Made by a program: the position numbers and the translations under genes. Positions 5,644 to 43,748 of a DNA stretch of 64,000 nt are shown one piece after another. Positions within the stretch are counted from its first letter, which is position 1. Every line of letters starts with the position of its first letter. The notes under the pieces are model-generated. The model did no database searches and was not told the DNA's origin. It saw nothing but the letters and a program-made list of their open reading frames with translations. The DNA is from Candidatus Woesearchaeota archaeon (GTDB taxonomy: Archaea; Nanobdellota; Nanobdellia; SCGC-AAA011-G17; UBA489): the NCBI GenBank assembly GCA_964344635.1, contig CAYFOE010000004.1, positions 279 to 64,278 of the forward strand, in the 5' to 3' direction.

Positions 5644-5697
5644 ATTGGCTAAAAGGAATATTTATATAGGTTGGATGAATAAAATTAGAAAGATGGG

Positions 5698-6504
5698 GTG
5701 TTTTATTTGAGCAAAAAAGAGCAAACTAGTTTTTTTCAAGGAATCAAGTCTAAAAAGGCTCAGGCAACAACCTTTATTGTTCTAGGCTTAGTCATTCTAG
5801 CTGTTGTTGTTTTGTTCGGATTTGTCAGAACCCAGTTTTTATTCGGTCCAGTTTCCATAGACAAATTAAACCAAGTTGGCTTGGAACCAATCAGAGATCA
5901 TGTAGAAGACTGTGTAGAAGAAGTAGCACCAGAATACTTTGACAGAATAGGAATGCAAGGCGGTTATTTGTCTACGCCCGAAGACACATTTAGAAATGTA
6001 AACGGAGTAACCGTAAGCTATCTTTGTTACAATATGGAAGATGTTCCAAACTGTTACAATCGTTATTTGACCTTAAGTGGAATGGAATCACAATTGAGTA
6101 ATGCAATAGTTGATGGGTTAAGCAGTTGTATTAATCTTAAAGGATTTGCAAGAGGGGCAACATTGAACGTTGGAAACTTAGACGTTGAAGTAGACGTAGG
6201 AGATTATGAATCAATCGTAGATGTCAAGATGCCCATCAGAATTTCAAAAGGCGATCTATTTGTTGAAGAAAGTGATTTCAGCACAAGTTTGAAATTACCT
6301 CTTGGAGCACTATATGGGGTTTCAATGGACATTCTAGAGAGTGAAACCACAGTCGGAGAATTTGATCAGTTAGGTTATATGCTAATGCATAGAGGACAAT
6401 ACGTAATCGATAAAAAAAGACCTTATCCTGATAAGTTGTATGTTTTGAAGACTAAAGATGATGACTATATCTTCCAATTTTTTGTACAGGGCGAACCTGC
6501 ATAG
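5698..6504 (+). CDS. Pilin-like protein with class III signal peptide (KKA|QA)
   Basis: SKKAQATTFIVLGLVILAVVVLF fits the archaeal prepilin pattern; true start may be TTG 5707 after the GGGGTG SD. Confidence 0.8.
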   Translation: MFYLSKKEQTSFFQGIKSKKAQATTFIVLGLVILAVVVLFGFVRTQFLFGPVSIDKLNQVGLEPIRDHVEDCVEEVAPEYFDRIGMQGGYLSTPEDTFRNVNGVTVSYLCYNMEDVPNCYNRYLTLSGMESQLSNAIVDGLSSCINLKGFARGATLNVGNLDVEVDVGDYESIVDVKMPIRISKGDLFVEESDFSTSLKLPLGALYGVSMDILESETTVGEFDQLGYMLMHRGQYVIDKKRPYPDKLYVLKTKDDDYIFQFFVQGEPA

Positions 6505-6514
6505 GTGATTAAAT

Positions 6515-9500
6515 TTGTTTAGTAATAAATACACAAAGGAAAAGGCATTGTTCCAGATTTTCCTAATTGTATTTGTAGCATTTACCATTTCTGTTAATGT
6601 GGACAAAGTAGAAGCACAATCCCAAGACGTTTGTTGTGCAGAAACTGTCTCAGGAGAGAGTTGTGTTTATACCTCCTCTGATAATTGTGCTCCCGGATCT
6701 CAGAGTGCCGCAGCTTCATGTGAACAAACTAGCTTCTGTAAACTAGGATGTGGATTTGATCAAGAAGACGGACTATGCTTTAACAATATGCCAAAGTTTT
6801 CCTGTGAAAACAAAGAAGGATGTTCTTGGAGCCCAGAAGCTGATTGCGATATCCCTCAATGTGAAAGAGGATGTTGTGTTTTAAGCAATCAATGCTCATT
6901 TACAACACAAGTTCAATGTAAACAAATAACCTCACAATATGAAGACATTAACATGACATTCGATGAAGGAATCACATCAGAAGTTGCATGTTTGAATCAG
7001 TGTAGGAGCTATGAACGAGGGGCTTGTGTTAGCGATGACGGAAGCTGTAGTTTTACAACCAGGGATGCTTGTACAGAAGAGAATGCAGAAGGCGTTAACG
7101 TCACATTACCTTTAGTTGGATTCCATCCAGGTATGCTATGCAGTAATCCAAGACTCGGAACAGAATGTGCACCACAACACACCACTGCATGTTTAGCTGA
7201 GGCAGACGGAGTTTACTGGTTTGACTCTTGCGGAAACGCAGAAAATGTTTATTCTTCAGACAAAGTTAAAAGTTACAATGGAGGATTTGTCTTAAGCAAA
7301 GAAGAAAGCTGTGGATATGGTAATGCAAATATTGACAGTGAAGTCTGCGGAAATTGTGACTATTCTCTAGGCAGTTTATGCTCAATAGCCGAAGAAGGTG
7401 TTAATCCAGTCTATGGAGACTTTGCATGTAAAAGCCTAGCTTGCGATGGCGAAATTGTAACGGTCGATTTGAATGCACCTGCAACCAGCAACTTGCCCCT
7501 AGCTAATGGAGAAAGCTGGTGTGCATACGATGGATTGGTTGGGGCAAACGAGAATGCAGGACTAGGTCTAGACTTAGTAGGGAGCAGACACTATAGGAGA
7601 ATTTGTATCAATGGCGAAGAATTTACAGAACCTTGTAAAGACTTCAGAGAAGAAATGTGCGTACAGGGAGAAGTTGACCCTAACGTAGATCCAGCATTAC
7701 AACAAATCTTTGGAACCCAAGAAAGTTTTGGAAGTGCAGGCGTAGGGGATAATCTGATTTACGGAGCATGTAGGGAAAATAGATTCCAAGATTGTACATC
7801 CGTTAAAACCAAAGACGCATGCGAAAACAATGCAGTAAGAGATTGTACATGGATACTGGGAAATGAGAAAGAAGTCCCCCAAAACAATAAAGGAATAACA
7901 GCATGTGTTCCACTAGTTTCTCCAGGATTAAAACATTGGAGCGATGAAAGTTCAACCACCTCAAGCAAAGTTGATCCCAAGGCAACTTGTGAAAAAGGAA
8001 ATACTGAATGTACAGTTTATTTTGCAAAAAGTGGATTCGATAACATTCTTGGCGGAGACTGGGAATGTGAAGGTAATTGTGAATGTCTAACTCAAGACTA
8101 TCTACAAGATGCTAATGCAGTTTGTAAAAGTTTAGGAGACTGCGGAGCATGGTATAATATAGCAGGTGACAAAAGTTGTGATGGTTTCGTTGAAAATCTA
8201 AACCAATACACTGATCCAACTGCAAGAAATGATGTAGACGTTTGTAATGCATTAGTTCCATTCGGAGATCTAAGAGGGAAAGGTGGAAGGCATGGAGCAG
8301 ACGTTGCAGGGTTTGACGCATTCTTTAGTCCAGCACTAGGTCCAGCACTAGGGATAACTGCAATCGGAGCAGGATTGAGTTTAGGGGCTGTAGGGGGAGA
8401 ATATAGTCTATTGCAAGGAATCACACATGGTCCGAACTCATTAATATCTTTGACTGAAGGAGGAGCATTTGCGCCCGAAGGCATTGCTGCAGCTGAAGGA
8501 TTACTAGGAACATTGACAACAGTATTCACAGTCGTACAAGTTGCATTATACTTGTACCTAGCATATCAGTTCATCAACACAGTATTCGCAAAAGACAGAG
8601 AAGTTGTAATCGATATCGGATGTAAAGTTTGGCAAGCACCGCCCGGAGGAGAAAACTGTGAACTATGTCAAGAAGATGGAAAAGAGTGTAGCGAGTATAG
8701 ATGTAAGAGTCTGGGTCAAAGTTGTAAACTAGTTAATGAAGGAAGCGAAGATGAAAAATGTATAAGTGCAAACGTTAACGATGTACTGCCTCCATTCGTT
8801 ACAGTGAACAAAGAAAGAACCGTTCATTTGACTGACGGCTTAGACGATATAAGAGACATTACAGAAGTTGAAGGAAAAGGATTTGAAGTAATCCCCAAAA
8901 TTCCACCATTTACAGCAGTCACACTAGTTGTAGACACAAATGAATTTGCACAATGTAAATACGACGTAGAATACGGAAAAGACTTTGACGAAATGGTCCA
9001 ATACTTCGGAGACGGAACATACAACAAAACACACGAAATGTTATTCAGTTTACCTGGAGCTTTAGCAGAACCCGAAGCATTACAATTAACCAACGGCGGC
9101 CAATACCAACTGTATGTTAAATGCCAAGATGGAAACGGCAACCAAAACGAAGCAGACTATTACGCTAAATTCGCAATTGATGACGGTCCAGACTTTACCC
9201 CTCCAATCATAGAAGTTACAAGCATTGCAAATGGAGCATACGTTCCAATGGGCATCAATCAAACTGACTTTTCAATCTATGTAAATGAACCAGCTAATTG
9301 CAAATGGGACGATATTAGCGTTGCATTCGAAGATATGTATCATGAATTTACATGCGATACAAACCCATTCCCAAGTTCCTCACTATATTACGGACTATAT
9401 GAATGCCAAACAGTTTTAGACGGCATCGAAGACATGAGAGACAACGAATACTTCTTCAAATGCGAAGACAAACCCGATAAGCCAAAAGAAGAAAGAAATG

Positions 9501-33225: not shown

Positions 33226-33876
33226 ATGAAGATAATTACGTTGGGAGCAGGTGAACAAGGAAGAGTTGTTAAGGACCTGCTAGAGGACATTGCAGAGCAT
33301 GAATTTTATGGTTTTTTAGACGACAGTCTAAAAGGCAAAGTTGACGGAGCACCCATTCTAGGAAAATCCGACAATATTGAAAATTACCTAGGTTCAGATT
33401 ATTCATTTATCATAGCATTAGGAAACAACCATCACAGAGCCAAACTTTTTGAAAGAATAGAAAAACTGGGAGGAAACCTTGAAACAATAATTCATCCCAC
33501 AGCAAGAATCTCCAAAGACGCACACCTTGAGAAAGGGTGTTTCTTAGGCTATCAAGCATTTGTAGCTAACGGAGTTCGTGTTGGAAAAGGAGCAATACTA
33601 GACAACCGTTCAACAATAGAGCATGACTGTAACATTGGAGACTACGTAAACATCTCTCCTGGAAGCCTACTGGTTAGCGGAAACAACAGAGGCAGATATT
33701 CACACACAGGAGCAAGCTCAACTATCGGCGAAGATGTCTCAGTTGGTGAAAACTGCATTATAGGTACCGGTTCTTTAGTTCTTAGTGATGTTCCGGACTC
33801 CCGTGTTGCTTTTGGCCACCCCGCCAAAATCAAAGGAGAAGTAAGCCCTACAGGCGAGCATAGATTGTATAAGTAA
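33226..33876 (+). CDS. PglD/NeuD-type sugar O/N-acetyltransferase
   Basis: GAGEQG Rossmann start, ALGNN..R, IIHP, EHD, hexapeptide repeats, GHPAK. Confidence 0.9.
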   Translation: MKIITLGAGEQGRVVKDLLEDIAEHEFYGFLDDSLKGKVDGAPILGKSDNIENYLGSDYSFIIALGNNHHRAKLFERIEKLGGNLETIIHPTARISKDAHLEKGCFLGYQAFVANGVRVGKGAILDNRSTIEHDCNIGDYVNISPGSLLVSGNNRGRYSHTGASSTIGEDVSVGENCIIGTGSLVLSDVPDSRVAFGHPAKIKGEVSPTGEHRLYK

Positions 33877-33907: not shown

Positions 33908-35056
33908 ATGACCTGGTCAATTCCCTTATTTAAATCTTGGTCAGACGAGCAAGATGTTGAAAGTGTTTCAGAAGTTATTAGAAGAGCAACCTACTGGGCA
34001 GTCGGTCCAGAAATAGACTCCTTTGAAAAATCAATAGCAGACTACACTAAAACAAACTATGCACTATCTTACAATTCCGGAACTTCAGCTTTAACCTCCG
34101 CATTCTTAGCAATAGATATCAAAGATAAAGAAGTGATTGTACCCTCATTTACATTTGTATCCAACGTTAGTCCAGTTGTTTTAGCTGGAGGAATCCCAGT
34201 ATTTGCAGACTCAGAAAAAGACACATTTGGTTTGAGTTATGAAGATGTAAAAAATAAAATCACCGATAAGACCTGTGCAATCGTAGCATTCCATTACGGA
34301 GGAATTCCTTCAAAAGACATTGAAAAAATAAGAGACCTTGCCAAAGAAAAAAACATCTTATTGGTCGAAGATGCAGCAGAATCAATTGGATCATTAGTGA
34401 ACGGTAAAATGGTTGGTTCCTTCGGAGATATTGGAATGTTTAGTTTATGCCAGAATAAAGTTATTTCCTCAGGCGAAGGCGGACTTTTAGTAACATCTTC
34501 CAAAGAACTATATGAAAAATGCAAACTTTTGAGATCACACGGAAGATTAGAACACGCAGAAGATTACTTTTCAACAAACGAAGACAACGACTATGTTTGT
34601 TTTGGCCACAATTACAGAATGTCATCTATATCTGCAACCCTAGGAAACTCTCAATTGAAAAAAATAGACATGCTAATTGAAAAAAGAAGAGAGATTGCAC
34701 AAAAATACGACGAAGGCTTTTCAGAAATAACAGAAATAACAGTTCCGAAAAGATTAGACGGACACTTCCAAGTTTTTCAAATGTACTCGATTAGGTTACT
34801 CGACCAAAAAATAAGAGACGGACTACAAAATTACCTTACTGAAAAAGGAATCATGTCCAAAGTCTACTTTAATCCCGTGCACCTCAAAACAGCATTTGTA
34901 AAAAATTATCCAGCACCAGAATGTGGACTCCCAGTAGTTATGGAATTGTCCCAGACTGTATTGAATATTCCTCTTTATCCAAGTATGACTTCGGATGAGG
35001 TAAAAACTGTGATCGAAACGGTTTGTAACTACTTTAAGAATGGCGGTGAAAAATAA
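33908..35056 (+). CDS. DegT/DnrJ/EryC1/StrS sugar aminotransferase
   Basis: NSGTSAL, VPSFTF, EDAAES, FSLCQNKVISSGEGG (PLP Lys), GHNYRM. Confidence 0.9.
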   Translation: MTWSIPLFKSWSDEQDVESVSEVIRRATYWAVGPEIDSFEKSIADYTKTNYALSYNSGTSALTSAFLAIDIKDKEVIVPSFTFVSNVSPVVLAGGIPVFADSEKDTFGLSYEDVKNKITDKTCAIVAFHYGGIPSKDIEKIRDLAKEKNILLVEDAAESIGSLVNGKMVGSFGDIGMFSLCQNKVISSGEGGLLVTSSKELYEKCKLLRSHGRLEHAEDYFSTNEDNDYVCFGHNYRMSSISATLGNSQLKKIDMLIEKRREIAQKYDEGFSEITEITVPKRLDGHFQVFQMYSIRLLDQKIRDGLQNYLTEKGIMSKVYFNPVHLKTAFVKNYPAPECGLPVVMELSQTVLNIPLYPSMTSDEVKTVIETVCNYFKNGGEK

Positions 35057-36453
35057 TGATATCAGTTGAAGAAAGAAAAAAAAGATTTGAAAGTTCCATG
35101 GTCAGCCAAGACTTTTCTGTAAAAGAAGTAATGGCCCAAATAGACAGATCAGGATTCAAAACATCCTTTATTGTAGATGGCAACAAAAAATTACTCGGAG
35201 TAGTTACCGATGGAGACATCAGAAGATTTTTATTAAAAGGAGGAAGTTCAGAAAGCAAAATTAACGAAGTAATGAACACCTCTTTTTATTCCGTTAAGAG
35301 TAAAAACGAGATTGATAGTGCTCGTGTCGGAGACTTAGCGGTTACAGCACTACCTCAGATAAATAACGAAGGCCAGCTGATCGATTTTTTTGTTTTCTCA
35401 TATGACACTAAAGAATTCTTAAGCTACCTTAATGACTCTATTCAAGAAAGACCAATAAACAAAGTGTTAGTAGTCGGAGGAGCAGGATACCTCGGATCAA
35501 TCTTATGTAAAAAATTACTAGGGAAAGGATACTCAGTTAGAGTTTTAGATTCATTATTATTTGGGGACGAGTCAATAAAAGACTTAACAGATAACCCCCA
35601 ATTTGAATTAATAGTAGGAGACATGAGAGATATAAGTGTGGTAATGCAATCAGTAGAGGGCGTTGACGCAGTAGTCCATCTTGCAGCAATAGTTGGAGAT
35701 CCAGCTTCAGCACTTAACCCTGCAAAAACTATTGAAGTAAACTATCTTGCAACAAAGCTAATCGCAGATGTTTGTAAGTATAGCCAGATTAACAAATTCA
35801 TCTTTGCTTCAACATGCAGTGTTTACGGTGCACAGCTACCAGAAGATGAAGGATTCTTGACCGAAGAATCTTCATTAAATCCAGTTTCATTATATGCAGA
35901 AATGAAAATTATGTCTGAAAAAGCATTAATGGAAATGAGAGATAGAAATTTTGCACCCACTATTTTGAGAATGGGAACACTCTACGGTTTATCTCCCAGA
36001 ATGAGATTCGATCTTGTAGTAAATATTTTGACTGCAAAAGCAAAATTTGACGGAGAATTCACTATCATGGGTGGCGATCAATGGAGGCCGTTTGTGGAAG
36101 TTGGAGATGCAGCAGATGCTTATGTGAAATGTATAGAAGCTCCTTTCGAAAAAGTTGGCGGAGAAAGTTTTAACGTAGGCGGCGACAAGCAAAACATGAT
36201 GATTAAAGAAGTTGGAGACTTAGTTAAGAACCTGATACCCACTGCAAAATTGAACACTAATAAAACTGATGTAGACAGAAGAGACTACAAAGTTTCCTTT
36301 AAAAAAATTACAGATATTCTAGACTACATTCCTAAAAAAAGCATGGAAGAGTCAATAAAAGAAATGGAAGCAGCTATAGACTCTAAGAAAATTGTAGACT
36401 ATACTCTAAAAATCTACAACAACTACCATCACTTAAAGAACGAGGCAGAGTGA
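35056..36453 (+). CDS. CBS-pair plus extended SDR NDP-sugar epimerase/dehydratase fusion
   Basis: N-terminal LLGVVTDGDIRR CBS domains; GGAGYLGS, HLAAIVGD, STCSVYG, YAEMK, QWRPF. Confidence 0.85.
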   Translation: MISVEERKKRFESSMVSQDFSVKEVMAQIDRSGFKTSFIVDGNKKLLGVVTDGDIRRFLLKGGSSESKINEVMNTSFYSVKSKNEIDSARVGDLAVTALPQINNEGQLIDFFVFSYDTKEFLSYLNDSIQERPINKVLVVGGAGYLGSILCKKLLGKGYSVRVLDSLLFGDESIKDLTDNPQFELIVGDMRDISVVMQSVEGVDAVVHLAAIVGDPASALNPAKTIEVNYLATKLIADVCKYSQINKFIFASTCSVYGAQLPEDEGFLTEESSLNPVSLYAEMKIMSEKALMEMRDRNFAPTILRMGTLYGLSPRMRFDLVVNILTAKAKFDGEFTIMGGDQWRPFVEVGDAADAYVKCIEAPFEKVGGESFNVGGDKQNMMIKEVGDLVKNLIPTAKLNTNKTDVDRRDYKVSFKKITDILDYIPKKSMEESIKEMEAAIDSKKIVDYTLKIYNNYHHLKNEAE

Positions 36454-36454
36454 A

Positions 36455-37891
36455 GTGGACTTCAAAGAGATAAGATCTCTAGAGAGGCACTTTGGAAAAC
36501 ACCTTAATTACAAAGGACTAAATCTTTGGAAATTCATTGATGTTGCATTGTACTACAAATTTCTCTCTGAGGAAAATTCTCCCAATATTGCCGAAAGATT
36601 AATGGCAAAACTGACACCCATCTTGTTTAAGATACAACAAACAAAAAGAAGTCGCTTCAAAACTCCACCTAACAAATCCAAAAGCGAAGTTCTTTTTTTA
36701 CCCTTTGCCAAAACCCATTTAGGGACGTTTAAGCCAGTTCTAGAAAAGTTAGACTCATACAAAGTTGTGATAAAAGATAGTCTAGCGAATTATAATACTC
36801 GAGATTATATTGAAGAATTAGGCATACCCTATTCCTGGATCGAATTTTATGCAGACAGGACATTTAATGACGAAATCAAAAAAATAAAAAAATGGGTTAA
36901 ATCTGCATGGAATGACATTTCAAATGATAAAAAAATAAGAGAACTTTTTGATAAAAAATCCTATTTGGAAGGAGCATTAAAATATTTCCTAGTTGATCGG
37001 AAACGTTTGGTCGAGATCATAAGTTACATAGAACTTATTGAAAGAATGTATTCAAAAGAAAAACCTAAGTTGGTGGTGGTTGCAGACGAACATACAGATT
37101 TTGGAAACATCGCAATAACTCTCGCAAAAAAAAGGGGTATCAAAACCTTAAACATACAACACGGTTCAATAATCAACAATGAAATTGTAAAATCTGAACT
37201 AAAACCGGACCTCACAGCAGTCTTTAGTCCAAAAGATAAGCAATTTTTAGTTGATCAAGGCTTAGATGCTAAAAAAATAAAGGTTACAGGCAAGCCAGAA
37301 TATGATGCTTTGCTAGATAAAAATTTAGATAGATCTAAAGAATGTAAGAGATTTGGATTAAACCCTAACAAAAAGATCTGCCTTTTTGCCACACAGTATG
37401 GAATTAACAAACAAGACGAGATTGCTATCAAAAAAATTAAAAACTTCGTTTTTGAAACCTTTCAGAAAAGAGACGATTTACAACTAATAATTAAAACTCA
37501 CCCTTCAGATAAACAAGATTATTCTCCTTATATCTCAGATAGGGTCAAAGTGGTAAATAACTCAGAATTTAACAAAATCTTGTTAAACTTAAGCGATGTA
37601 ATAATGACTGTTTCATCAACTATCGCTCTTGAAGGAGTTATTTGTGACAAACCATTAATCATTGTTAATCGAGGCCAAGACATTTACTATGTCGATGAAG
37701 GTGTGGCTTTGAAAGCAACAAATGGAAACGAATTAAGTGAATCATTGGACTTTGTTTTTAAAGACAGAAAGACCGCAAGGGATTTAAAGAAGAATAGGAC
37801 TATCTTCAAATACAACTATGCATACAAACTCGATGGAAAAACTGTCGAAAGAGTTTTAGGTTTAATTAAAAAACTTGTAAAAAATGATTGA
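36455..37891 (+). CDS. GT-B fold transferase, candidate CMP-nonulosonate transferase
   Basis: IQHG, TGKPEYD, IKTHP (HP motif as in sialyltransferases), SSTIALEG; immediately upstream of neuA. Confidence 0.6.
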   Translation: MDFKEIRSLERHFGKHLNYKGLNLWKFIDVALYYKFLSEENSPNIAERLMAKLTPILFKIQQTKRSRFKTPPNKSKSEVLFLPFAKTHLGTFKPVLEKLDSYKVVIKDSLANYNTRDYIEELGIPYSWIEFYADRTFNDEIKKIKKWVKSAWNDISNDKKIRELFDKKSYLEGALKYFLVDRKRLVEIISYIELIERMYSKEKPKLVVVADEHTDFGNIAITLAKKRGIKTLNIQHGSIINNEIVKSELKPDLTAVFSPKDKQFLVDQGLDAKKIKVTGKPEYDALLDKNLDRSKECKRFGLNPNKKICLFATQYGINKQDEIAIKKIKNFVFETFQKRDDLQLIIKTHPSDKQDYSPYISDRVKVVNNSEFNKILLNLSDVIMTVSSTIALEGVICDKPLIIVNRGQDIYYVDEGVALKATNGNELSESLDFVFKDRKTARDLKKNRTIFKYNYAYKLDGKTVERVLGLIKKLVKND

Positions 37892-38612
37892 CGGAAAAAA
37901 AATTATATCAATAATTCCTGCAAGAGGTGGCTCAAAAAGAATAATTGGAAAAAACATAATTAAAATCGGAGGGAAACCCTTAGTATACCACTCCATCAGG
38001 CATTCTCTTCAATCAGAATTTATTGATAGAACAATTGTATCTACAGACGATCCTGAAATAAAAAAAATAGCATTAAAATACGGTGCAGAAGTTTTTGATC
38101 GCCCAAGAAAATATTCAGGAGATAAAGCAAGCACATTAAGTGTTTTGAAAAACGTGATATCTCAACTTAGAACTAAGGAAAAATATGATCCTGACATGGT
38201 GGTGTTACTGCAACCAACTTCTCCTATCAGGCAAGAAGGTCGCATAGATCAAGCAATAAGACTCTACATTTCTAAAGGCGCAGATATGGTTGTTTCTGTT
38301 GAAGAAAGATCACTAGAACCTAGATGGATTTTGAAAGAAGAATCTAACCGCCAACTAGGATTTATGCAAAAGAACGATTTTTCTAGAGTGAGAGAACAAG
38401 ATCAGAAAAAATATTATGAGTTGAATGGTTCTATAACTATGTACTCCACAGAATTAATGATGAGTACCGAAAAATATGTTTTTGGAAAGAAAACCTATCC
38501 CTTAGTGATGTCTAAGATTGAATCTTTTCAATTAGATACTCAAGAAGATTTGAAAATAATCAGAAAATTTTTAGGCCATTTTTGGAAGAAAAAGTTTATA
38601 AGCAATCAATAG
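37884..38612 (+). CDS. neuA: CMP-nonulosonate synthetase (acylneuraminate cytidylyltransferase)
   Basis: IIPARGGSKRI.GKN, VSTDD, LQPTSP.R, YELNGS, LDTQED. Confidence 0.9.
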   Translation: MIDGKKIISIIPARGGSKRIIGKNIIKIGGKPLVYHSIRHSLQSEFIDRTIVSTDDPEIKKIALKYGAEVFDRPRKYSGDKASTLSVLKNVISQLRTKEKYDPDMVVLLQPTSPIRQEGRIDQAIRLYISKGADMVVSVEERSLEPRWILKEESNRQLGFMQKNDFSRVREQDQKKYYELNGSITMYSTELMMSTEKYVFGKKTYPLVMSKIESFQLDTQEDLKIIRKFLGHFWKKKFISNQ

Positions 38613-38624
38613 AGACTCTCTACT

Positions 38625-39281
38625 ATGAAAGTATTGTGTATAGTGGCTCATCCAGATGATGAAGTTTTAGGCATTGGAGGAACAATATCAAAACATGTCA
38701 AGGATGGAGACGAGGTATTCATAGCAATAGTTAGCGAAGGCGTCAGTGCACAATACAAAGATTCTGAAAAATATTTAGAACTGAGAAGGAAAGCCTGTAA
38801 AGATGCTGCAGATTTTTTAGGTGTTAAAGAAGTAATCTTTGGAGAATTTCCTGATGCTAAATTAGATACAGTTTCCTCTTTTGAGATCAATAAATTCATC
38901 GAAGAAATAATTGATAAAACCTCTCCAGATAGAATTTATACTCACCATTGGGGAGATAATCACAAAGACCACAAAATTGTTCACGAATCCGTATTAGTGG
39001 CTGCAAGAAACTCCTTATGTGACATATACTGTTGCGAAATAGCGAGTTCTGGCGATAAAACCGGGATTCCTACTAATTTATTCTGTCCTAATTTTTACGT
39101 TGACATCTCAGATCACCTAAAGAACAAACTTAAAGCCCTGAGTTTTTATTCCACTGAATTAAAAGAATACCCTCACCCAATTTCAGAAAAAGCTATCGAG
39201 GCTTTAGCAATGGTTAGAGGGTTTAAAGTAAATATTAAACTTGCAGAAGCATTTGTTTGTTTGAGAAAAATTGAGAGATAG
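38625..39281 (+). CDS. PIG-L family N-acetyl deacetylase
   Basis: AHPDDE, D.H.DH, YVDIS motifs. Confidence 0.9.
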   Translation: MKVLCIVAHPDDEVLGIGGTISKHVKDGDEVFIAIVSEGVSAQYKDSEKYLELRRKACKDAADFLGVKEVIFGEFPDAKLDTVSSFEINKFIEEIIDKTSPDRIYTHHWGDNHKDHKIVHESVLVAARNSLCDIYCCEIASSGDKTGIPTNLFCPNFYVDISDHLKNKLKALSFYSTELKEYPHPISEKAIEALAMVRGFKVNIKLAEAFVCLRKIER

Positions 39282-39284
39282 AAA

Positions 39285-39830
39285 ATGAAAAAAATACTTG
39301 TTCTTGGATCCACTAAAGAATTAGAAGAAAAAAAACTTTCACAGCATTGCACAAGCGATGAATATCCTCTCGGAACCAAATTCGAATTTGCTAATTTTCC
39401 CGAAGTAGACTTGAATGTTCTGCCATTACCCTTTAAGACAAATGAATTTGATGGGATTTTTGCAAGCCATATCTTAGAACACACAATACCCTACCAGTTT
39501 TTAGACTTGATGAAAGAAATAAACAGAATAACTAAACCTGGAAGCGAAATAAAAATCTACGTTCCTCATTTTAGTAATGAATCAGCCTTAGCACCAATAA
39601 CTCACTATACCGTTTTTGGAAAAGACACATTTAATGAAATTTGTGATAATGTCAGCGGTTGGCAAAGATACATGAGTGGCTGTTTTAACCTCAAATGCTC
39701 TGAAATCCAGATCCCTGGACGATTCTTTTTTTGCAAATGGGTTTCCCAATCAACATATGAAGCAAAATTTGCAAGATTTTTCCCCTCCAGCGAAATAAGG
39801 TTTGTTCTAGAAAATATAAAGAAAAAATAA
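39285..39830 (+). CDS. Methyltransferase-like protein, paralog of 30613-31200 with degenerate SAM motif
   Basis: DLNVLPLPF, ASHILEH, EINRITKPG, VPHFS; motif I reads LVLGS. Confidence 0.7.
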   Translation: MKKILVLGSTKELEEKKLSQHCTSDEYPLGTKFEFANFPEVDLNVLPLPFKTNEFDGIFASHILEHTIPYQFLDLMKEINRITKPGSEIKIYVPHFSNESALAPITHYTVFGKDTFNEICDNVSGWQRYMSGCFNLKCSEIQIPGRFFFCKWVSQSTYEAKFARFFPSSEIRFVLENIKKK

Positions 39831-39908
39831 GCTTTATAATGGTAATATCGCTTACCGTAATACTTTTATGCATACAATATTCCTTTTTTGAGACAATAGG
39901 TCGTTAAA

Positions 39909-41036
39909 ATGAAATCTAAAGACAATCTGGACTTTGCAAACAGAGCTAAGAGCTATATCATAGCCGAAGCTGGAGTAAACCATGACGGTAGCCTTGAGAA
40001 AGCAAAAAAGTTAGTGGATGCAGCAATTTTTGCAGGTGTTGACGCAGTTAAATTTCAGACATTTAAAACAGAAAAAATTGTCACTGAAGACACTAAGCAA
40101 GCAGATTATCAAATAGAAAATCTGGGAAAAGACGAAGGCCAATTCAAGATGTTAAAAAGACTAGAGTTAGCTGAATCTGATTTTAAAGAAATAAAAAATT
40201 ATTGTGGTGAAAAAGGAATCACCTTTTTATCTACGCCACACAGCGGAATCTGGAGTGTAAATATTTTAGAAAACTTAGATATAGATTTTTACAAAATAAG
40301 TTCAGGAGATTTGAACAATAAACCCTTACTAGATCATATTTCAAAATTAAAAAAACCAATCGTACTTTCTACAGGAATGGCAACTATGGAGGAAATATCT
40401 GAAACACTGAATTGGATAAAATCTGTGCCTAAAAATCAAATTGTAGTCCTTCATTGTACTTCAAGCTATCCCAGTTCCGAAGAAAGAGTTAACTTAAATG
40501 CAATGGTGACCATCCGGGAAGATCTTGACTGTGTAGTTGGTTATTCGGACCATACAATGGGGTTAGAAACAGCAGCTATTGCTACATGTCTTGGATCGAA
40601 AGTTTACGAAAAACATCTTACATTAGATAGAAATGATGTCGGTCCAGACCATAAAGCCTCATTAGAGCCAAACGAATTTAAGAAAATGGTAGAAATCATT
40701 AGGTTAATTGAAGAAAATGATTTGAGAAATCCAAAAGAAGCCTTTGAATTCTTGAATTCTAAAGGATTTGAACTAAATGAAGAATTAATTGATACAATCT
40801 TAGGGAAATCTGAAAAATTCCCAGATGAACTAGAACTAGAGATTGCAAAAGTTTCAAGAAAAAGTTTAGTTGCGTTAAAAGATCTGAAAGCCGGAGAAAC
40901 ATTGAATGAAGAAAATATGGGTATTAGAAGGCCTGGAGAAGGATTACCTCCAAAATTTTATGGGAAACTGTTAGGATTAGTTTTAGCAAAGGACGTAAAA
41001 AAAGGAAAATACATATTAGAAGGAGATGCAAAATGA
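39909..41036 (+). CDS. neuB: Nonulosonic acid synthase (NeuB/LegI family) with SAF domain
   Basis: IAEAGVNHDG, AVKFQTF, KISSGD, LHCTSSYP, GYSDHT, EKHLTLDR, GPDH, RRPGEG. Confidence 0.92.
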   Translation: MKSKDNLDFANRAKSYIIAEAGVNHDGSLEKAKKLVDAAIFAGVDAVKFQTFKTEKIVTEDTKQADYQIENLGKDEGQFKMLKRLELAESDFKEIKNYCGEKGITFLSTPHSGIWSVNILENLDIDFYKISSGDLNNKPLLDHISKLKKPIVLSTGMATMEEISETLNWIKSVPKNQIVVLHCTSSYPSSEERVNLNAMVTIREDLDCVVGYSDHTMGLETAAIATCLGSKVYEKHLTLDRNDVGPDHKASLEPNEFKKMVEIIRLIEENDLRNPKEAFEFLNSKGFELNEELIDTILGKSEKFPDELELEIAKVSRKSLVALKDLKAGETLNEENMGIRRPGEGLPPKFYGKLLGLVLAKDVKKGKYILEGDAK

Positions 41037-41968
41037 CAAAAAAAATTAAGATATTAAGATCTGCAGTGGGAAGCTCTCCATCTTTAGGTTTGATTAAAGA
41101 ATTACAAGCTAACAATTTTGAAATTATAGGACTAGATTGTGACCCCAATTCATTCGGTCTATTCTATCTAGAAAAAGGTTATGTTATACCTTTAGGAAAA
41201 AGCGAACAATTTATTCCCAAACTGAAAGAAATTATAGAGAAAGAAAAACCACAAGCAATACTTCAGGGTCCAGAGGAAGAGATGGAAGCATTAGCAATGA
41301 ATAAAAAAGCCCTTAAAGAATTGGGTATGAAAGTGTTATTGCCAGACATAGAATCTGTAAAAATATGTACCGATAAATTAGAAACTAAAAAGTTATTTGA
41401 TAAAATTAATATCCCTCAACCGGAAACTTATTCTGAAACAAACATTAAATTTCCATGTATCCTAAAACCAAAAAAAGGAAGAGGTGGAACAGGAATATAC
41501 AAAATCGAAAGCAAAAGCGAATATGAAATCTTAAAAAATAGAGAAAAAGATTACATAATTCAAGAATTTGTAGATGGAGAAGAATACACTGTAGATTTAT
41601 TATCCGGAAATGAAGGAGAAGTTTTGTCAATTGTTCCAAGAAAAAGAGTTTGCATTGAGTCCGGCGTGGTTTCAAAAGCAATCACTTGCAACGATGAAGA
41701 AATCATTAAATATTGTAAAAAAATATCTCAAGAATTAAAGTTATTTGGCCCTTCATGCATTCAATGCATAAAAGGAAAAAATGGGGTTAAATTTTTAGAG
41801 ATTAATCTAAGATTCGGTGGAGGTTCAATCTTATCTGTTAAATCTGACCCCAGCTTTATTGAAAATTTAAAAGCATTAATCTTAGAAGAGCCAGTTAAAA
41901 CAAGCAAGGGTTTTAAAGAAAACCTTATGATGTTAAGAAATTATCAGGAGATTTATGTACAAAAATGA
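41033..41968 (+). CDS. ATP-grasp ligase (carbamoyl-phosphate-synthase-like)
   Basis: DK..TK, ILKPKKGRGG, IIQEFVDGEEYTVD, EINLRFGG. Confidence 0.85.
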   Translation: MTKKIKILRSAVGSSPSLGLIKELQANNFEIIGLDCDPNSFGLFYLEKGYVIPLGKSEQFIPKLKEIIEKEKPQAILQGPEEEMEALAMNKKALKELGMKVLLPDIESVKICTDKLETKKLFDKINIPQPETYSETNIKFPCILKPKKGRGGTGIYKIESKSEYEILKNREKDYIIQEFVDGEEYTVDLLSGNEGEVLSIVPRKRVCIESGVVSKAITCNDEEIIKYCKKISQELKLFGPSCIQCIKGKNGVKFLEINLRFGGGSILSVKSDPSFIENLKALILEEPVKTSKGFKENLMMLRNYQEIYVQK

Positions 41969-42618
41969 AAAAGGCTATCTTCTTTGATTTAGATTACACC
42001 CTATTTGATACCGAAGACTATTATTCTGCAGGCTTAAAGGCAGTTTCTGAATATCTGGAATCCGAAAACTCAGTAGATTCTTCAGTCACTTTTGAATTCT
42101 TATTAGGTCTGTGGAAAGAAAAAACTAGCAGATATGCATCCCTTTTTGACGATGTTATAGAAAAATTTAACCTAGAAGTTGATGCTAAAAAGTTAGTCGA
42201 AATATTTAACTCAGTCAGTCCTGATCTGAAACCCTATGACGATGCTACCGAAATTCTAGACTTATTGGAAAATAAACATTACCTAGGTATAATTACTGAT
42301 GGAAACTCTAAACGCCAAAAAAGAAAAATAGATATTCTTTTTGGCAATAAATATTTCGATAAAATTATTTGTAGTGGAGATCTTGATTCAGACAAATCTT
42401 CCACTAAACCCTTCAAATTAGCTAAATCTTGTTGTGATGAGGGAGTTAATTTTTATTATGTAGGGGATAATCCAGTTATAGATTTTAAATCTGCAAAAGA
42501 GGAAGGATTTACAACCATAAGAATCCTAAGAGGAGAATACGGAAAAGAAAATGTAGGTCAAGAATGGATCGACCACAGTATAGAAACACTAACAGAGGTT
42601 GCAGAAATTATAAAATGA
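41965..42618 (+). CDS. HAD-superfamily hydrolase
   Basis: FDLDYTL, ITDG, KP, YVGDNPVID. Confidence 0.9.
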   Translation: MKKAIFFDLDYTLFDTEDYYSAGLKAVSEYLESENSVDSSVTFEFLLGLWKEKTSRYASLFDDVIEKFNLEVDAKKLVEIFNSVSPDLKPYDDATEILDLLENKHYLGIITDGNSKRQKRKIDILFGNKYFDKIICSGDLDSDKSSTKPFKLAKSCCDEGVNFYYVGDNPVIDFKSAKEEGFTTIRILRGEYGKENVGQEWIDHSIETLTEVAEIIK

Positions 42619-43748
42619 AAATTGGAATAGTCACAGGGACAAGGGCAGAGTTTGGAATACTGAAACCACTAATAAAAAAAATAGAACACTCAAAGAAGTT
42701 AGACCTCCAATTATACGTTACAGGCCTACACCTTGAGAAAGCCTACGGCAATACTGGAAAAGAAGTAAAACGTGAATTCAGAAATGTAAAAAGTGTTAAG
42801 ATGTACTGCAAGGCAAAAGAAAGTCAATATCACGCAAAAGGACTCTCTGAGGGGATAAGCAACCTATCCAAGGTATTTGAAAGAGACAATATTGATATAG
42901 TAATGATCCTAGGAGACAGGCTTGAAGCTTTGGCTGCGACACTTGCTGCAGCATTACAAAACATCCTTATTGCCCACATTCATGGAGGAGACAAAACAGA
43001 TAGCGGTCACATTGACGAGAATATTAGACACTCAATAAGCAGGTTCGCACACATTCATTTTGTTGCTACAAAAGAACACGGATTAAGGTTGGTTAAAATG
43101 GGAGAAGAGAGAAAAAGAATTTACAATGTTGGCGCTCTAGGCATCGATTCATTAATTGAGCTGAAAACTATCTCTAAAGATAACCTTAGGAAAAAACTCG
43201 ATGTAGATTTTGAAAAACAAGTTATTCTTTGCATATTCCACCCATTTATGTTAGAATCAGCTAAATCAGGCATATACATGAAGAGAATTGTTAAGGCATT
43301 AAAGAATGTAAGAGAACAAGCAATAATCATTTATCCAAACAATGATGCAGGAAGTAAAGATATCATCAAAGAAATAAAAAAAATTGATGACGAACACATA
43401 AAAGTGTTTAAGAATCTAGACCACGATATCTACGCTAACTTGATGAAGCACAGCTCAATAATCATTGGAAACTCAAGCAGTGGAATAATTGAAGCAGCAA
43501 CATTCGATTTACCGGTGTTGAATATTGGAATGAGAAACGTAGGAAGAGCATACGGAACCAATGTTTCTTTTTGTGATGTCAATGAAAAAGAAATCACTAA
43601 ATCAATCAATAAACTCCTAAATCTAAAAAAGAATGGAAAAAAGTTTAGAAACATTTATGGAGATGGAAAAACCAGCGATAAAATAGTTGAAATCTTAGAA
43701 TCCCTAAAGATTGACGATTCTTTGTTTAGAAAAAAAATAACCTACTGA
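42615..43748 (+). CDS. neuC: Hydrolysing NDP-GlcNAc(diNAc) 2-epimerase (NeuC/LegG)
   Basis: GTRAEFG, LGDRLE, HIHGG, GNSSSGIIEA, YGDG; start at the ATGA overlap, 42615. Confidence 0.9.
   Translation: MKIGIVTGTRAEFGILKPLIKKIEHSKKLDLQLYVTGLHLEKAYGNTGKEVKREFRNVKSVKMYCKAKESQYHAKGLSEGISNLSKVFERDNIDIVMILGDRLEALAATLAAALQNILIAHIHGGDKTDSGHIDENIRHSISRFAHIHFVATKEHGLRLVKMGEERKRIYNVGALGIDSLIELKTISKDNLRKKLDVDFEKQVILCIFHPFMLESAKSGIYMKRIVKALKNVREQAIIIYPNNDAGSKDIIKEIKKIDDEHIKVFKNLDHDIYANLMKHSSIIIGNSSSGIIEAATFDLPVLNIGMRNVGRAYGTNVSFCDVNEKEITKSINKLLNLKKNGKKFRNIYGDGKTSDKIVEILESLKIDDSLFRKKITY

What the first reader, a model, noticed from the sequence alone, without database searches (positions are those of the whole stretch)
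35056..36453. LegX/PtmE-type CBS pair fused to an SDR instead of a nucleotidyltransferase
Seen: the N-terminal ~130 aa (IVDGNKKLLGVVTDGDIRRFLLKG...EVMN) continue directly into VLVVGGAGYLGS. Known: in Leg clusters this CBS pair normally heads the LegX/PtmE nucleotidyltransferase, whose catalytic domain begins with a similar strand-Gly motif. No such nucleotidyltransferase is in the cluster. Inference: a domain swap has put adenylate sensing on the sugar dehydratase step, and the pathway may run on UDP- rather than GDP-sugars.
Basis: partly seen in the sequence, partly recalled or inferred. Interest (0 to 1): 0.6.

Follow-up and report, generated by a model that had tools for sequence, protein, structure and literature searches.

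The report
Common CBS-sensor sugar oxidoreductase fusion
The gene is a real fusion of a small-molecule sensor (CBS pair) to the first enzyme of a sialic-acid-like sugar pathway in a tiny archaeon, but the same fusion occurs in hundreds of archaeal and bacterial species, so it is a widespread, unstudied family, not a local domain swap.

Summary
ORF 35056-36453 (+, 465 aa) is an N-terminal CBS pair, a 12-residue linker and an extended SDR. The AlphaFold2 model has pLDDT 91.

The CBS pair is of the LegX/PtmE and KpsF type. It shares their GhhTDGDIRR signature, and a profile of it ranks a CBS-nucleotidyltransferase first.

No sugar-1-phosphate nucleotidyltransferase was found in the window or in the 95%-complete, 658-kb genome.

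The fusion is neither rare nor a chimera:
- All 120 best database relatives are full-length; about 112 carry a CBS hit.
- At least 589 species genomes encode the SDR family.
- Of the 80 best loci, 43 of 43 archaeal and 17 of 37 bacterial ones carry the CBS part.
- The order aminotransferase then CBS-SDR, with NeuB and NeuC nearby, is kept across phyla.
- This scan has also flagged the fusion on other genomes.

The SDR is not a canonical LegB, PseB or PglF dehydratase. Its closest solved relative is Cj1427, a C4-dehydrogenase. An invariant Thr-Cys-Ser replaces the dehydratase acid/base pair.

My best reading is that it performs the first, 4-keto-forming step, probably a non-canonical 4,6-dehydration of UDP-GlcNAc, under CBS control. 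A UDP-linked route without LegX is already known in Bacillus subtilis. Interest is modest.

The parts
35056..36453 (+). CBS-SDR fusion gene, 465 aa plus stop (protein P0001)
   Evidence: ORF list and translation; Pfam CBS + Epimerase; AF2 model pLDDT 91.2
35095..35424 (+). CBS pair (Bateman module), residues about 14-123
   Evidence: Secondary structure of the models; Z 13.3 to solved CBS pairs 3kpb and 4o9k; the profile's best PDB sequence matches are the CBS pairs of KpsF/GutQ arabinose-5-phosphate isomerases
35197..35226 (+). CBS1 ligand-site signature GVVTDGDIRR (G48-R57)
   Evidence: G48 and R56 are invariant and T51, D52, G53, D54, I55 nearly invariant in 60 family members. The same signature appears in the consensus of the nucleotidyltransferase-linked and DegT-linked modules and in a SIS+CBS, KpsF-like protein (P0143).
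35425..35460 (+).
   Evidence: No regular secondary structure in the model; poorly conserved; no compositional break
35461..36450 (+). Extended SDR (NAD-dependent epimerase/dehydratase fold), residues 136-465
   Evidence: PF01370 E 2e-46; PDB 6vo6 Cj1427 E 1e-49 over residues 135-458; Foldseek TM 0.91-0.93 normalised to the target
35476..35499 (+). Rossmann NAD motif GGAGYLGS (G141-S148)
   Evidence: Invariant or nearly invariant columns
35809..35829 (+). Catalytic block S-T253-C254-S255-V-Y-G. Cys-Ser stands where 4,6-dehydratases have Asp-Glu, Ser-Glu or Asp-Lys.
   Evidence: S252, C254, S255, V256, Y257 and G258 are invariant and T253 nearly invariant in the family. The pattern FASTCSVYG helped retrieve at least 589 species genomes. 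The assignment of dehydratase residues rests on established knowledge of RmlB, GMD and PglF.
35893..35907 (+). SDR catalytic Y280-x3-K284
   Evidence: Invariant columns Y280 and K284
33908..35056 (+). DegT/PseC/LegC-type aminotransferase, translationally coupled partner (TAATG overlap)
   Evidence: PF01041 E 9e-97; overlap; DegT lies within 6 kb in 65 of 80 related loci
33226..33876 (+). NeuD/PglD-type N-acetyltransferase
   Evidence: TIGR03570 at 188 bits, above its cut-off of 160.8
36455..37891 (+). GT-B-like transferase (BFO_1060-family, Glyphos_transf or Capsule_synth-like); candidate nonulosonate transferase
   Evidence: A PF05159 protein of the same size sits next to the fusion in a Woesearchaeota contig.
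37884..38612 (+). CMP-nonulosonate synthetase (CTP_transf_3)
   Evidence: PF02348 E 3e-27; PseF-like, 144 bits
39909..41036 (+). NeuB-family nonulosonate synthase
   Evidence: PF03102 E 3e-85; TIGR03569 at 398.6 bits against a cut-off of 399.65
42564..43748 (+). NeuC/LegG-type hydrolysing 2-epimerase
   Evidence: TIGR03568 at 407 bits, above its cut-off of 235.9

Best explanation
The gene encodes the first committed enzyme of a legionaminic-acid-type nonulosonate branch. That branch is built into the archaeal N-glycosylation locus of a DPANN-size archaeon.

The C-terminal extended SDR oxidises C4 of a nucleotide-GlcNAc, most likely UDP-GlcNAc. It hands the 4-keto sugar to the translationally coupled DegT aminotransferase. 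N-acetylation (NeuD/PglD type), hydrolysing 2-epimerisation (NeuC type), condensation with PEP (NeuB type) and CMP activation then follow.

I think the SDR most likely also removes the C6 hydroxyl. That would make it a non-canonical 4,6-dehydratase, an 'archaeal-type LegB', with the invariant Cys254 taking the acid/base role.

The N-terminal CBS pair is an allosteric ligand-binding module of the KpsF/PtmE subtype. It gates entry into the pathway. In GDP-linked Leg pathways the same module sits on the dedicated nucleotidyltransferase LegX/PtmE. Here UDP-GlcNAc is a shared metabolite, so the first dedicated enzyme is the SDR, and the module sits there.

Shown: the architecture, the homology of both parts, the wide distribution and the conserved gene neighbourhood. 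Inferred: substrate, dehydration, ligand and direction of regulation.
For: Architecture and fold.

Only candidate enzyme: it is the only extended SDR in the 95%-complete genome. Any 4-keto sugar for the aminotransferase must therefore come from it.

Conserved neighbourhood:
- The gene order acetyltransferase, DegT, CBS-SDR, with NeuB, NeuC-type and CTP_transf_3 genes nearby, is kept in marine Euryarchaeota, in Woesearchaeota and in a further contig.
- DegT lies within 6 kb in 65 of 80 named species loci.
- Nonulosonate genes lie within 6 kb of 31 of 60 CBS-bearing loci and of 0 of 20 CBS-less loci.

The CBS module is of the PtmE/KpsF subtype.

Placement of the module:
- CBS-nucleotidyltransferases sit in Leg clusters whose dehydratase carries no CBS hit.
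- No CBS-nucleotidyltransferase lies within 6 kb of any of the 60 CBS-SDR loci.

For dehydration:
- Bacterial members replace the CBS pair with a four-helix membrane N-terminus, as in PglF/WbpM-type UDP-GlcNAc 4,6-dehydratases, and keep DegT, sometimes with an acetyltransferase, beside them.
- Many cultured haloarchaea carry the fusion.
- The two published primers inside Halorubrum sp. PV6 legB (PMC6137143) encode VTVTDP and VLKMPTF. These match the family motifs GTVTDGD and ILRMPTLFG at the right places. That organism makes N-formyl-legionaminic acid, a 9-deoxy sugar.

For UDP: there is no LegX/PtmE in the genome, and a UDP-linked Leg pathway without LegX exists in B. subtilis (PMC7439481).
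Against: - The SDR fails the curated LegB, PseB and dTDP-glucose dehydratase models.
- The positions after the catalytic Thr are Cys-Ser, not an acidic pair.
- The closest solved enzyme, Cj1427, oxidises C4 without dehydrating. It uses alpha-ketoglutarate to reoxidise tightly bound NADH, and it acts on a GDP-sugar (PMC10680097).
- The genome as assembled has no enzyme to make UDP-GlcNAc or GDP-GlcNAc, so the substrate's origin is unknown.
- No ligand of this CBS subtype has been established here.
- In several haloarchaeal orthologues the TDGD signature has decayed, so ligand sensing is not universal in the family.
- The link to Halorubrum legB rests on two short primer-encoded peptides, not on the full sequence.
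Confidence: 0.6

Rival explanations
1. The SDR is a Cj1427-like C4-dehydrogenase that does not dehydrate. It makes NDP-4-keto-GlcNAc, and the coupled DegT turns that into a 4-amino-4-deoxy sugar. The alpha-ketoglutarate released by the aminotransferase could reoxidise the enzyme's NADH, as in the WbpB/WbpE pair. The final nonulosonate would then keep its C9 hydroxyl (a 5,7-diamino-3,5,7-trideoxy acid). The CBS pair would regulate as in the main explanation.
For: - Cj1427 is the best sequence match (E 1e-49) and the best fold match (TM 0.91-0.93, 34% identity).
- Its ping-pong mechanism is documented (PMC10680097).
- The family shares the SPRMR-DL-VN segment with Cj1427.
- The family lacks the dehydratase acid/base pair.
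- Pairing with an aminotransferase is tight and conserved.
Against: - 4-amino sugars that keep O6 are rare, whereas 4-amino-4,6-dideoxy sugars are common (general knowledge).
- Cj1427 has Asn where this family has an invariant Cys, a residue that serves as acid/base in other 4-keto-sugar enzymes (general knowledge of GDP-mannose 3,5-epimerase and GDP-fucose synthase).
- Bacterial members have PglF-like membrane anchors.
- The probable Halorubrum orthologue works in an organism that makes a 9-deoxy acid (PMC6137143).
Confidence: 0.25
2. A recent, lineage-specific domain swap moved the CBS pair from LegX/PtmE onto a LegB dehydratase. That created a new regulatory design and switched the pathway from GDP- to UDP-sugars.
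For: - The window's own CBS pair is more similar to some nucleotidyltransferase-linked CBS pairs (37-42% identity) than to most CBS pairs of its own family (21-34%).
- In a quick tree it fell next to nucleotidyltransferase-linked modules, with SH-aLRT 81.
Against: - The fusion is present across many archaeal phyla and several bacterial phyla, with conserved synteny.
- The nucleotidyltransferase-linked sequences in the tree had been selected as hits to this very CBS pair.
- A tree with all single SDR-linked modules held together scored 89.9 log-likelihood units better than the free quick tree and is not rejected (p-AU 0.92).
- The SDR is not of the LegB family.
Confidence: 0.05
3. The SDR is a plain UDP-GlcNAc/UDP-GalNAc 4-epimerase, or a 4-reductase, that serves the glycan and not the nonulosonate branch. 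The nonulosonate made here would then be a Neu5Ac-type acid that needs no 4-keto step.
For: - The second-best structural relatives are UDP-GlcNAc and UDP-hexose 4-epimerases (PelX 6wjb, GalE).
- The catalytic block resembles those of epimerases.
- The NeuB and NeuC genes alone could make Neu5Ac.
Against: - An epimerase does not explain the one-base overlap with a 4-aminotransferase, nor the conserved trio of acetyltransferase, aminotransferase and SDR.
- The aminotransferase would have no 4-keto substrate, because this is the only extended SDR in the genome.
Confidence: 0.05
4. Assembly or gene-calling artefact: two separate genes (CBS protein and SDR) were joined by a misassembly or a sequencing error near 35440.
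For: None found. Read coverage could not be examined.
Against: - The reading frame is continuous, with no compositional break.
- The two-domain model is confident (pTM 0.85).
- The same fusion is seen in hundreds of independent assemblies, including complete genomes of cultured haloarchaea.
Confidence: 0.01

Closest known systems
LegX/PtmE (Cj1329, Bresu_3267): CBS-pair + nucleotidyltransferase that makes GDP-GlcNAc for legionaminic acid
   Same: The N-terminal tandem CBS module is of the same subtype, with the GhhTDGDIRR..MN..P signature. It sits at the entry of a nonulosonate pathway (bioRxiv 10.1101/2022.03.25.485807).
   Different: The catalytic domain is an extended SDR, not an NTP_transferase. 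No NTP_transferase domain was found in the protein, the window or the genome.
Cj1427 of Campylobacter jejuni (PDB 6vo6/6vo8): GDP-D-glycero-D-manno-heptose C4-dehydrogenase
   Same: It is the best sequence and fold match of the SDR part (E 1e-49; TM 0.91-0.93). It shares the SPRMR-DL-VN segment and lacks the dehydratase acid/base pair.
   Different: Cj1427 has no CBS pair. It has Thr-Asn-Ser where this family has invariant Thr-Cys-Ser. It acts in heptose modification without an aminotransferase partner (PMC10680097). Identity is only about 34-40%.
LegB, PglF, PseB and SpsM: NDP-GlcNAc 4,6-dehydratases that open the Leg, bacillosamine and Pse pathways
   Same: The pathway position is the same: directly before the DegT-type aminotransferase and the NeuD/PglD-type acetyltransferase. 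Bacterial members of this SDR family even carry a PglF-like membrane N-terminus.
   Different: It scores far below the curated cut-offs (LegB 84 against 475; PseB 45 against 408). The Polysacc_synt_2 match covers only the Rossmann half. The catalytic acid/base residues are not conserved.
KpsF/GutQ arabinose-5-phosphate isomerases (SIS + CBS pair) of Kdo biosynthesis
   Same: They are the closest solved CBS pairs by sequence profile (3fna, 4o9k, 3k2v, E about 1e-9). 4o9k is the top Foldseek match and ties for first place by Z. They share the TDGDhRR signature, and they too are the first committed enzyme of an ulosonic-acid pathway.
   Different: The CBS pair is C-terminal to a SIS isomerase domain, not N-terminal to an SDR. 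The pathway is different.
Halorubrum sp. PV6 LegB (HrrPV6_1047), predicted first enzyme of the only studied archaeal legionaminic acid pathway (PMC6137143)
   Same: It has the same legC-legB gene order, in a cluster with NeuA, NeuC, a formyltransferase, NeuD and NeuB. Primer-encoded peptides match the family's CBS and SDR motifs. Many other haloarchaea have full-length orthologues.
   Different: Its activity was never assayed, and the paper does not mention a CBS domain.

Membership tests
CBS pair (Bateman module), Pfam PF00571 | Two tandem CBS repeats forming one compact module | tested here: met
   Pfam scores one repeat above its cut-off (28.8 against 24). The models show both repeats. Z 13.3, rmsd 2.3 A, over 108-111 residues to 3kpb and 4o9k.
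KpsF/PtmE-subtype CBS pair | Signature G-h-h-T-D-G-D-h-R-R in CBS1, followed by MN..P | tested here: met
   GVVTDGDIRR at residues 48-57. The same consensus is found in SDR-, nucleotidyltransferase- and DegT-linked modules, and the core TDGDIRR also in a SIS-linked protein. The best PDB profile matches are KpsF/GutQ CBS pairs.
LegX/PtmE nucleotidyltransferase | NTP_transferase (PF00483) catalytic domain after the CBS pair | tested here: not met
   No PF00483 hit in the protein or anywhere in the genome.
Extended SDR (PF01370 Epimerase family) | GxxGxxG NAD motif and Ser/Thr-Tyr-Lys catalytic triad | tested here: met
   PF01370 over its full length, E 2e-46. G141-S148, T253, Y280 and K284 are invariant or nearly so.
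LegB (NCBIfam TIGR04180) | Score above the curated cut-off | tested here: not met
   84.1 bits against a cut-off of 475.
PseB (TIGR03589) / PglF-CapD type (PF02719) | Score above the PseB cut-off; Polysacc_synt_2 match over the catalytic half | tested here: not met
   PseB 45.3 bits against 407.75. The PF02719 match covers only profile positions 1-128 of 293.
NDP-hexose 4,6-dehydratases in general (RmlB, GMD, CDP-glucose dehydratase, PglF) | Acid/base pair directly after the catalytic Thr (Asp-Glu, Ser-Glu or Asp-Lys) | tested here: not met
   Thr253 is followed by invariant Cys254-Ser255. The dTDP-glucose dehydratase model scores 91.6 bits against a cut-off of 365. This lowers the claim of family membership. 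It does not exclude dehydration by other residues.
Cj1427-type ping-pong C4-dehydrogenase | Close sequence and fold similarity | tested here: met
   E 1e-49 over residues 135-458; TM 0.91-0.93 normalised to the target.
Cj1427-type ping-pong C4-dehydrogenase | Tightly bound NADH reoxidised by alpha-ketoglutarate; no dehydration | not testable with these tools
   This is a biochemical property (PMC10680097). The +1 residue differs: Asn in Cj1427, Cys here.
Legionaminic-acid-type nonulosonate cluster | SDR + aminotransferase + N-acetyltransferase + hydrolysing 2-epimerase + NeuB-type synthase + CMP-synthetase in one locus | tested here: met
   All six are present between 33226 and 43748. The stereochemistry of the product is not testable here.

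The most novel reading that the evidence does not exclude
The KpsF/PtmE-type CBS pair is a mobile end-product sensor, for example for the CMP-activated sugar acid. Evolution attaches it to whichever enzyme is the first committed step of an ulosonic-acid pathway. Seen here: the nucleotidyltransferase in GDP routes, the SDR in UDP routes, and sometimes the aminotransferase. Other notes of this scan report it on the synthase as well. In addition, the STCSVYG SDR family would be a new mechanistic class of first-step enzyme. It could be a Cys-dependent 4,6-dehydratase. Or it could be a Cj1427-like dehydrogenase that is redox-coupled to its aminotransferase and yields a 9-hydroxy diamino nonulosonate not yet described.
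Probability: 0.25. Interest if true: 0.6.

Novelty: new member of a known kind. Interest (0 to 1): 0.3.

Why it matters
For this window it matters little. The gene is one more member of a very common, generically annotated family ('nucleoside-diphosphate-sugar epimerase/CBS domain-containing protein').

The family itself deserves a biochemist's attention, for three reasons:
- It appears to be the standard first enzyme of nonulosonate (sialic-acid-like) pathways in Archaea and in some uncultured bacteria.
- It does not look like any characterised LegB, PseB or PglF, so the identity of the sugar made by hundreds of archaeal N-glycosylation loci rests on an untested step.
- The same CBS module sits on three different enzymes of these pathways. 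That points to a shared, still unknown allosteric signal for surface-sugar production.

Tried and rejected
1. Assembly chimera: rejected because the fusion recurs in independent assemblies.

2. Fetching Halorubrum sp. PV6 legB with a published primer: there was no exact match in genome contigs. Only indirect support came from translating the two primers. A search with the Halomarina orthologue listed many haloarchaea but no named Halorubrum among the best 120.

3. CBS-module tree to test for a swap: the 137-column tree was poorly resolved. The window's module fell beside nucleotidyltransferase-linked ones (SH-aLRT 81). The constrained tree with SDR-linked modules together was better by 89.9 log-likelihood units and was not rejected (p-AU 0.92). 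So there is no evidence for a recent exchange, and a single origin is not shown either.

4. Literature:
- No paper holds both 'legionaminic acid' and 'CBS domain'.
- 'PtmE' + 'CBS' gave only unrelated papers.
- '4O9K', 'CMP-Kdo' + 'CBS' + 'arabinose 5-phosphate isomerase', and 'CMP-Kdo' + 'CBS domain' gave nothing.
- The archaeal fusion survey PMC11237513 does not mention CBS.
- The two Cj1427 primary papers are not held.

5. Ligand of the CBS pair: I recall that PDB 4o9k is a complex with CMP-Kdo. Both tool outputs cut the title short, so this remains an unverified recollection and is not used as evidence.

6. UDP against GDP preference from sequence: not attempted, because no reliable specificity determinants were at hand.

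7. A homodimer or complex prediction was not run, because no binding claim is made.


Full report
**What is there**

Window 35056-36453 (+) is one open frame of 465 codons. Pfam finds a CBS domain at residues 16-60 and a full-length NAD-dependent epimerase/dehydratase domain (PF01370) at residues 137-375.

An AlphaFold2 model built on 60 relatives is confident (pLDDT 91.2, pTM 0.85). It shows:
- a complete two-repeat CBS pair at about residues 14-123;
- a 12-residue linker;
- an extended SDR that starts with strand 136-140 and GGAGYLGS.

The CBS part folded alone (pLDDT 92.7) superposes on solved CBS pairs at Z 13.3. The start codon overlaps the stop of the upstream aminotransferase gene by one base (TAATG). 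The next gene begins one base after the stop. Base composition does not change at the domain junction.

**Surroundings**

The gene lies in a long same-strand block. In order, the block holds:
- a GT4 phosphosugar transferase;
- an 877-aa AglB/STT3 oligosaccharyltransferase;
- a WecB-type 2-epimerase;
- glycosyltransferases, a FemAB-like protein and a deacetylase;
- a NeuD/PglD-type acetyltransferase (33226);
- a DegT aminotransferase (33908);
- the CBS-SDR itself;
- a GT-B-like transferase (36455);
- a CMP-sugar synthetase (37884);
- a PIG-L deacetylase, a methyltransferase-like protein, a NeuB synthase (39909), an ATP-grasp ligase and a HAD protein;
- a NeuC-type hydrolysing 2-epimerase (42564);
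- more glycosyltransferases and, on the other strand, a flippase.

This is a legionaminic-acid-type nonulosonate branch inside an archaeal N-glycosylation locus.

The assembly is 657,721 bp in 39 contigs and is estimated 95.4% complete. That is DPANN-size. The closest named relatives, and earlier notes of this scan, say Woesearchaeota-type.

In this genome the target is the only extended SDR. There is no NTP_transferase-fold sugar-1-phosphate nucleotidyltransferase at all. The only weak NTP_transf_3 hit is the CMP-sugar synthetase.

**How common is the fusion?**

It is very common.
- The 120 best clusters in the 5.8-billion-protein collection all cover at least 78% of the query (119 of them at least 90%) at 46-65% identity. 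About 112 of them carry both PF00571 and PF01370. Some are already named 'nucleoside-diphosphate-sugar epimerase/CBS domain-containing protein'.
- Of the best 80 loci, all 43 archaeal ones carry the CBS module in the same frame. They come from Thermoplasmatota, Methanosarcinales, Halobacteria, Woese-, Micr-, Aenigmat-, Iain-, Undin- and Helarchaeota and Desulfurococcales. So do 17 of 37 bacterial ones, from Saccharibacteria and other CPR, Acidobacteriota, Bacteroidota, Gemmatimonadota and a Dehalococcoidales bin.
- Cultured haloarchaea have it too: Halomarina, Haloarcula halophila, Halobaculum, Natrinema, Natronorubrum, Natronococcus and others.
- Within the window's own phylum it is patchy. 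Full-length matches occur in 4 of 151 sampled genomes, and not in the one same-genus genome. This fits a variable surface-glycan island.

An assembly chimera is excluded. This scan has also flagged the same fusion on other genomes.

**The CBS half**

Outside its own family, residues 1-132 are most similar to CBS+DegT fusions and to CBS+NTP_transferase proteins of about 350 aa (37-42% identity, E 1e-12 to 1e-9).

A profile of 60 family CBS modules was scored against 1.84 billion representatives. It finds 12,274 proteins. The top hit is a double-CBS nucleotidyltransferase at E 1e-46. Among the full-length proteins in the best 150, SDR, nucleotidyltransferase and DegT partners are all present.

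One CBS-nucleotidyltransferase sits in a textbook bacterial Leg cluster whose dehydratase is a CBS-less Polysacc_synt_2 protein. One CBS-DegT sits beside NeuB and a CMP-synthetase.

The module consensus is nearly the same for all partners: GvVTDGDIRRAiL..G.....MN..P. A SIS+CBS, KpsF-like protein shares the TDGDIRR core. Among solved structures, the best profile matches are the CBS pairs of KpsF/GutQ arabinose-5-phosphate isomerases. LegX/PtmE is published as tandem CBS plus nucleotidyltransferase and as a marker of GDP-linked Leg pathways (bioRxiv 10.1101/2022.03.25.485807).

The idea of a recent swap is not supported. The tree of modules is poorly resolved, and a single clade of SDR-linked modules is not rejected (p-AU 0.92).

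**The SDR half**

It is not a member of the curated dehydratase families:

| Model | Score (bits) | Cut-off (bits) |
|---|---|---|
| LegB | 84 | 475 |
| PseB | 45 | 408 |
| dTDP-glucose dehydratase | 92 | 365 |

The closest solved protein by sequence (E 1e-49) and by fold (TM 0.91-0.93) is Cj1427. This C. jejuni enzyme only oxidises C4 of GDP-heptose and reoxidises its bound NADH with alpha-ketoglutarate (PMC10680097). UDP-GlcNAc and UDP-hexose 4-epimerases come next.

The catalytic block is S-T-C-S-V-Y-G with Y280-x3-K284, invariant or nearly so across the family. The pair of residues after the Thr is Asp-Glu, Ser-Glu or Asp-Lys in known 4,6-dehydratases (established knowledge). Here it is Cys-Ser.

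**What does it do?**

Position in the pathway is clear. It is the only enzyme that can give the coupled aminotransferase a 4-keto sugar. The trio of acetyltransferase, aminotransferase and SDR, with NeuB, NeuC and a CMP-synthetase nearby, is conserved in distant lineages. DegT is within 6 kb in 65 of 80 loci.

Three indirect points make me favour dehydration, at about 60:25 over plain oxidation.

1. The 20 bacterial members without CBS carry an N-terminal four-helix membrane domain of about 170 aa. One has a weak CoA_binding_3 hit. This is the PglF/WbpM layout. They keep DegT in 19 of 20 cases and an acetyltransferase in 8 of 20, as in bacillosamine-type pathways.
2. The invariant Cys is a plausible acid/base. 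This is an inference.
3. Halorubrum sp. PV6 makes N-formyl-legionaminic acid, a 9-deoxy sugar, and its predicted legB follows legC (PMC6137143). The two published primers inside that gene translate to VTVTDP and VLKMPTF. These line up with the family motifs GTVTDGD (CBS1) and ILRMPTLFG (SDR). The second primer aligns best at the position corresponding to that SDR motif in five of eight haloarchaeal orthologues. This is circumstantial, because the full sequence could not be fetched.

**Role of the CBS pair**

Nonulosonate genes lie within 6 kb of 31 of 60 CBS-bearing loci and of none of the 20 membrane-anchored ones. No CBS-nucleotidyltransferase lies near any CBS-SDR. These loci are related, so the counts are descriptive and not a statistical test.

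The simplest reading is that this CBS subtype is the regulatory module of ulosonic-acid pathways. It sits on the first dedicated enzyme. That is the nucleotidyltransferase where GDP-GlcNAc must be made specially, and the SDR where the shared pool of UDP-GlcNAc is tapped.

A UDP-linked Leg pathway without LegX has been shown in B. subtilis (PMC7439481).

The ligand is unknown. CBS pairs bind adenylates, SAM, c-di-AMP and other ligands (titles). In some haloarchaeal orthologues the TDGD signature has decayed.

**Open problem**

The genome as assembled cannot make any nucleotide-GlcNAc. The substrate may come from a host or from an unrecognised enzyme.

**Verdict**

The gene is an ordinary member of a large, uncharacterised family. 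The interesting questions concern the family as a whole: its chemistry and the signal sensed by its CBS pair.

Noticed in passing
whole genome G000 (window = C4:279-64278): A 658-kb, 95%-complete genome carries a glycosylation block of more than 20 kb, yet no NTP_transferase-fold sugar-1-phosphate nucleotidyltransferase was found (PF00483: 0 hits; the only PF12804-like hit is the CMP-sugar synthetase). The source of UDP- or GDP-GlcNAc is unexplained.
   Followed up: partly
G063 (same genus) and 150 other genomes of the phylum: The full-length CBS-SDR was found in only 4 of 151 sampled genomes of the phylum, and not in the one same-genus genome. The nonulosonate branch looks like a variable island.
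   Followed up: partly
L051, L053, L062, L069, L070, L078, L082 (bacterial loci, SDR ORF around 5500-7100): Bacterial members of the same STCSVYG SDR family replace the CBS pair with a four-helix membrane N-terminus of about 170 aa (PglF/WbpM-like layout). They sit next to DegT, with or without an acetyltransferase, and have no NeuB or NeuC within 6 kb.
   Followed up: partly
L085:5485-7437 and L057:5524-7941: Two of those membrane-anchored SDRs carry further C-terminal modules. One (Bacteroidota MAG) has a response-regulator receiver domain. The other has TPR repeats and a weak effector-associated-domain hit.
   Followed up: no
P0184 (1425 aa), P0190 (3237 aa), P0202 (2354 aa), P0211, P0241: Giant proteins contain 6-10 copies of this same CBS-module subtype, with E 1e-25 to 1e-31 against the module profile. 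Their partner domains were not identified.
   Followed up: no
P0109, P0162, P0181, P0183, P0216 (564-585 aa); P0153, P0166, P0168, P0182, P0199 (471-535 aa): Variants carry two CBS pairs in tandem before the SDR or before the nucleotidyltransferase. P0038 (804 aa) adds radical-SAM/SPASM domains to the CBS-SDR.
   Followed up: no
L093:2555-4027 (P0121): A CBS pair is fused to a DegT aminotransferase. The cluster also holds NeuB, a GNAT, an AP_endonuc_2 TIM-barrel protein, a CMP-synthetase and a polysialyltransferase-like gene. This is a third enzyme of such pathways that carries the module.
   Followed up: partly
window 36455-37891: A 478-aa GT-B-like protein directly follows the fusion. It has weak Glyphos_transf, Capsule_synth and BFO_1060-family hits. 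A PF05159 protein of the same size is its neighbour in a Woesearchaeota contig (L010). It is a candidate nonulosonate transferase.
   Followed up: no
L055, L058, L059, L061, L079, L088 (Natronorubrum, Natrinema, Natronococcus): In these haloarchaeal orthologues the CBS1 signature has decayed (TDERLRQ, TDHRLRQ, TSERLR, PSEQLR), although the domain is retained. Halomarina and Halomontanus keep TDGDIRR.
   Followed up: no
window 38625-42618: PIG-L deacetylase, methyltransferase-like, ATP-grasp and HAD genes are interleaved with the NeuA, NeuB and NeuC genes. Relatives have formyltransferase/PIG-L or WbqC/radical-SAM sets at the same place. This suggests variable N-acyl tailoring of the nonulosonate.
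   Followed up: no
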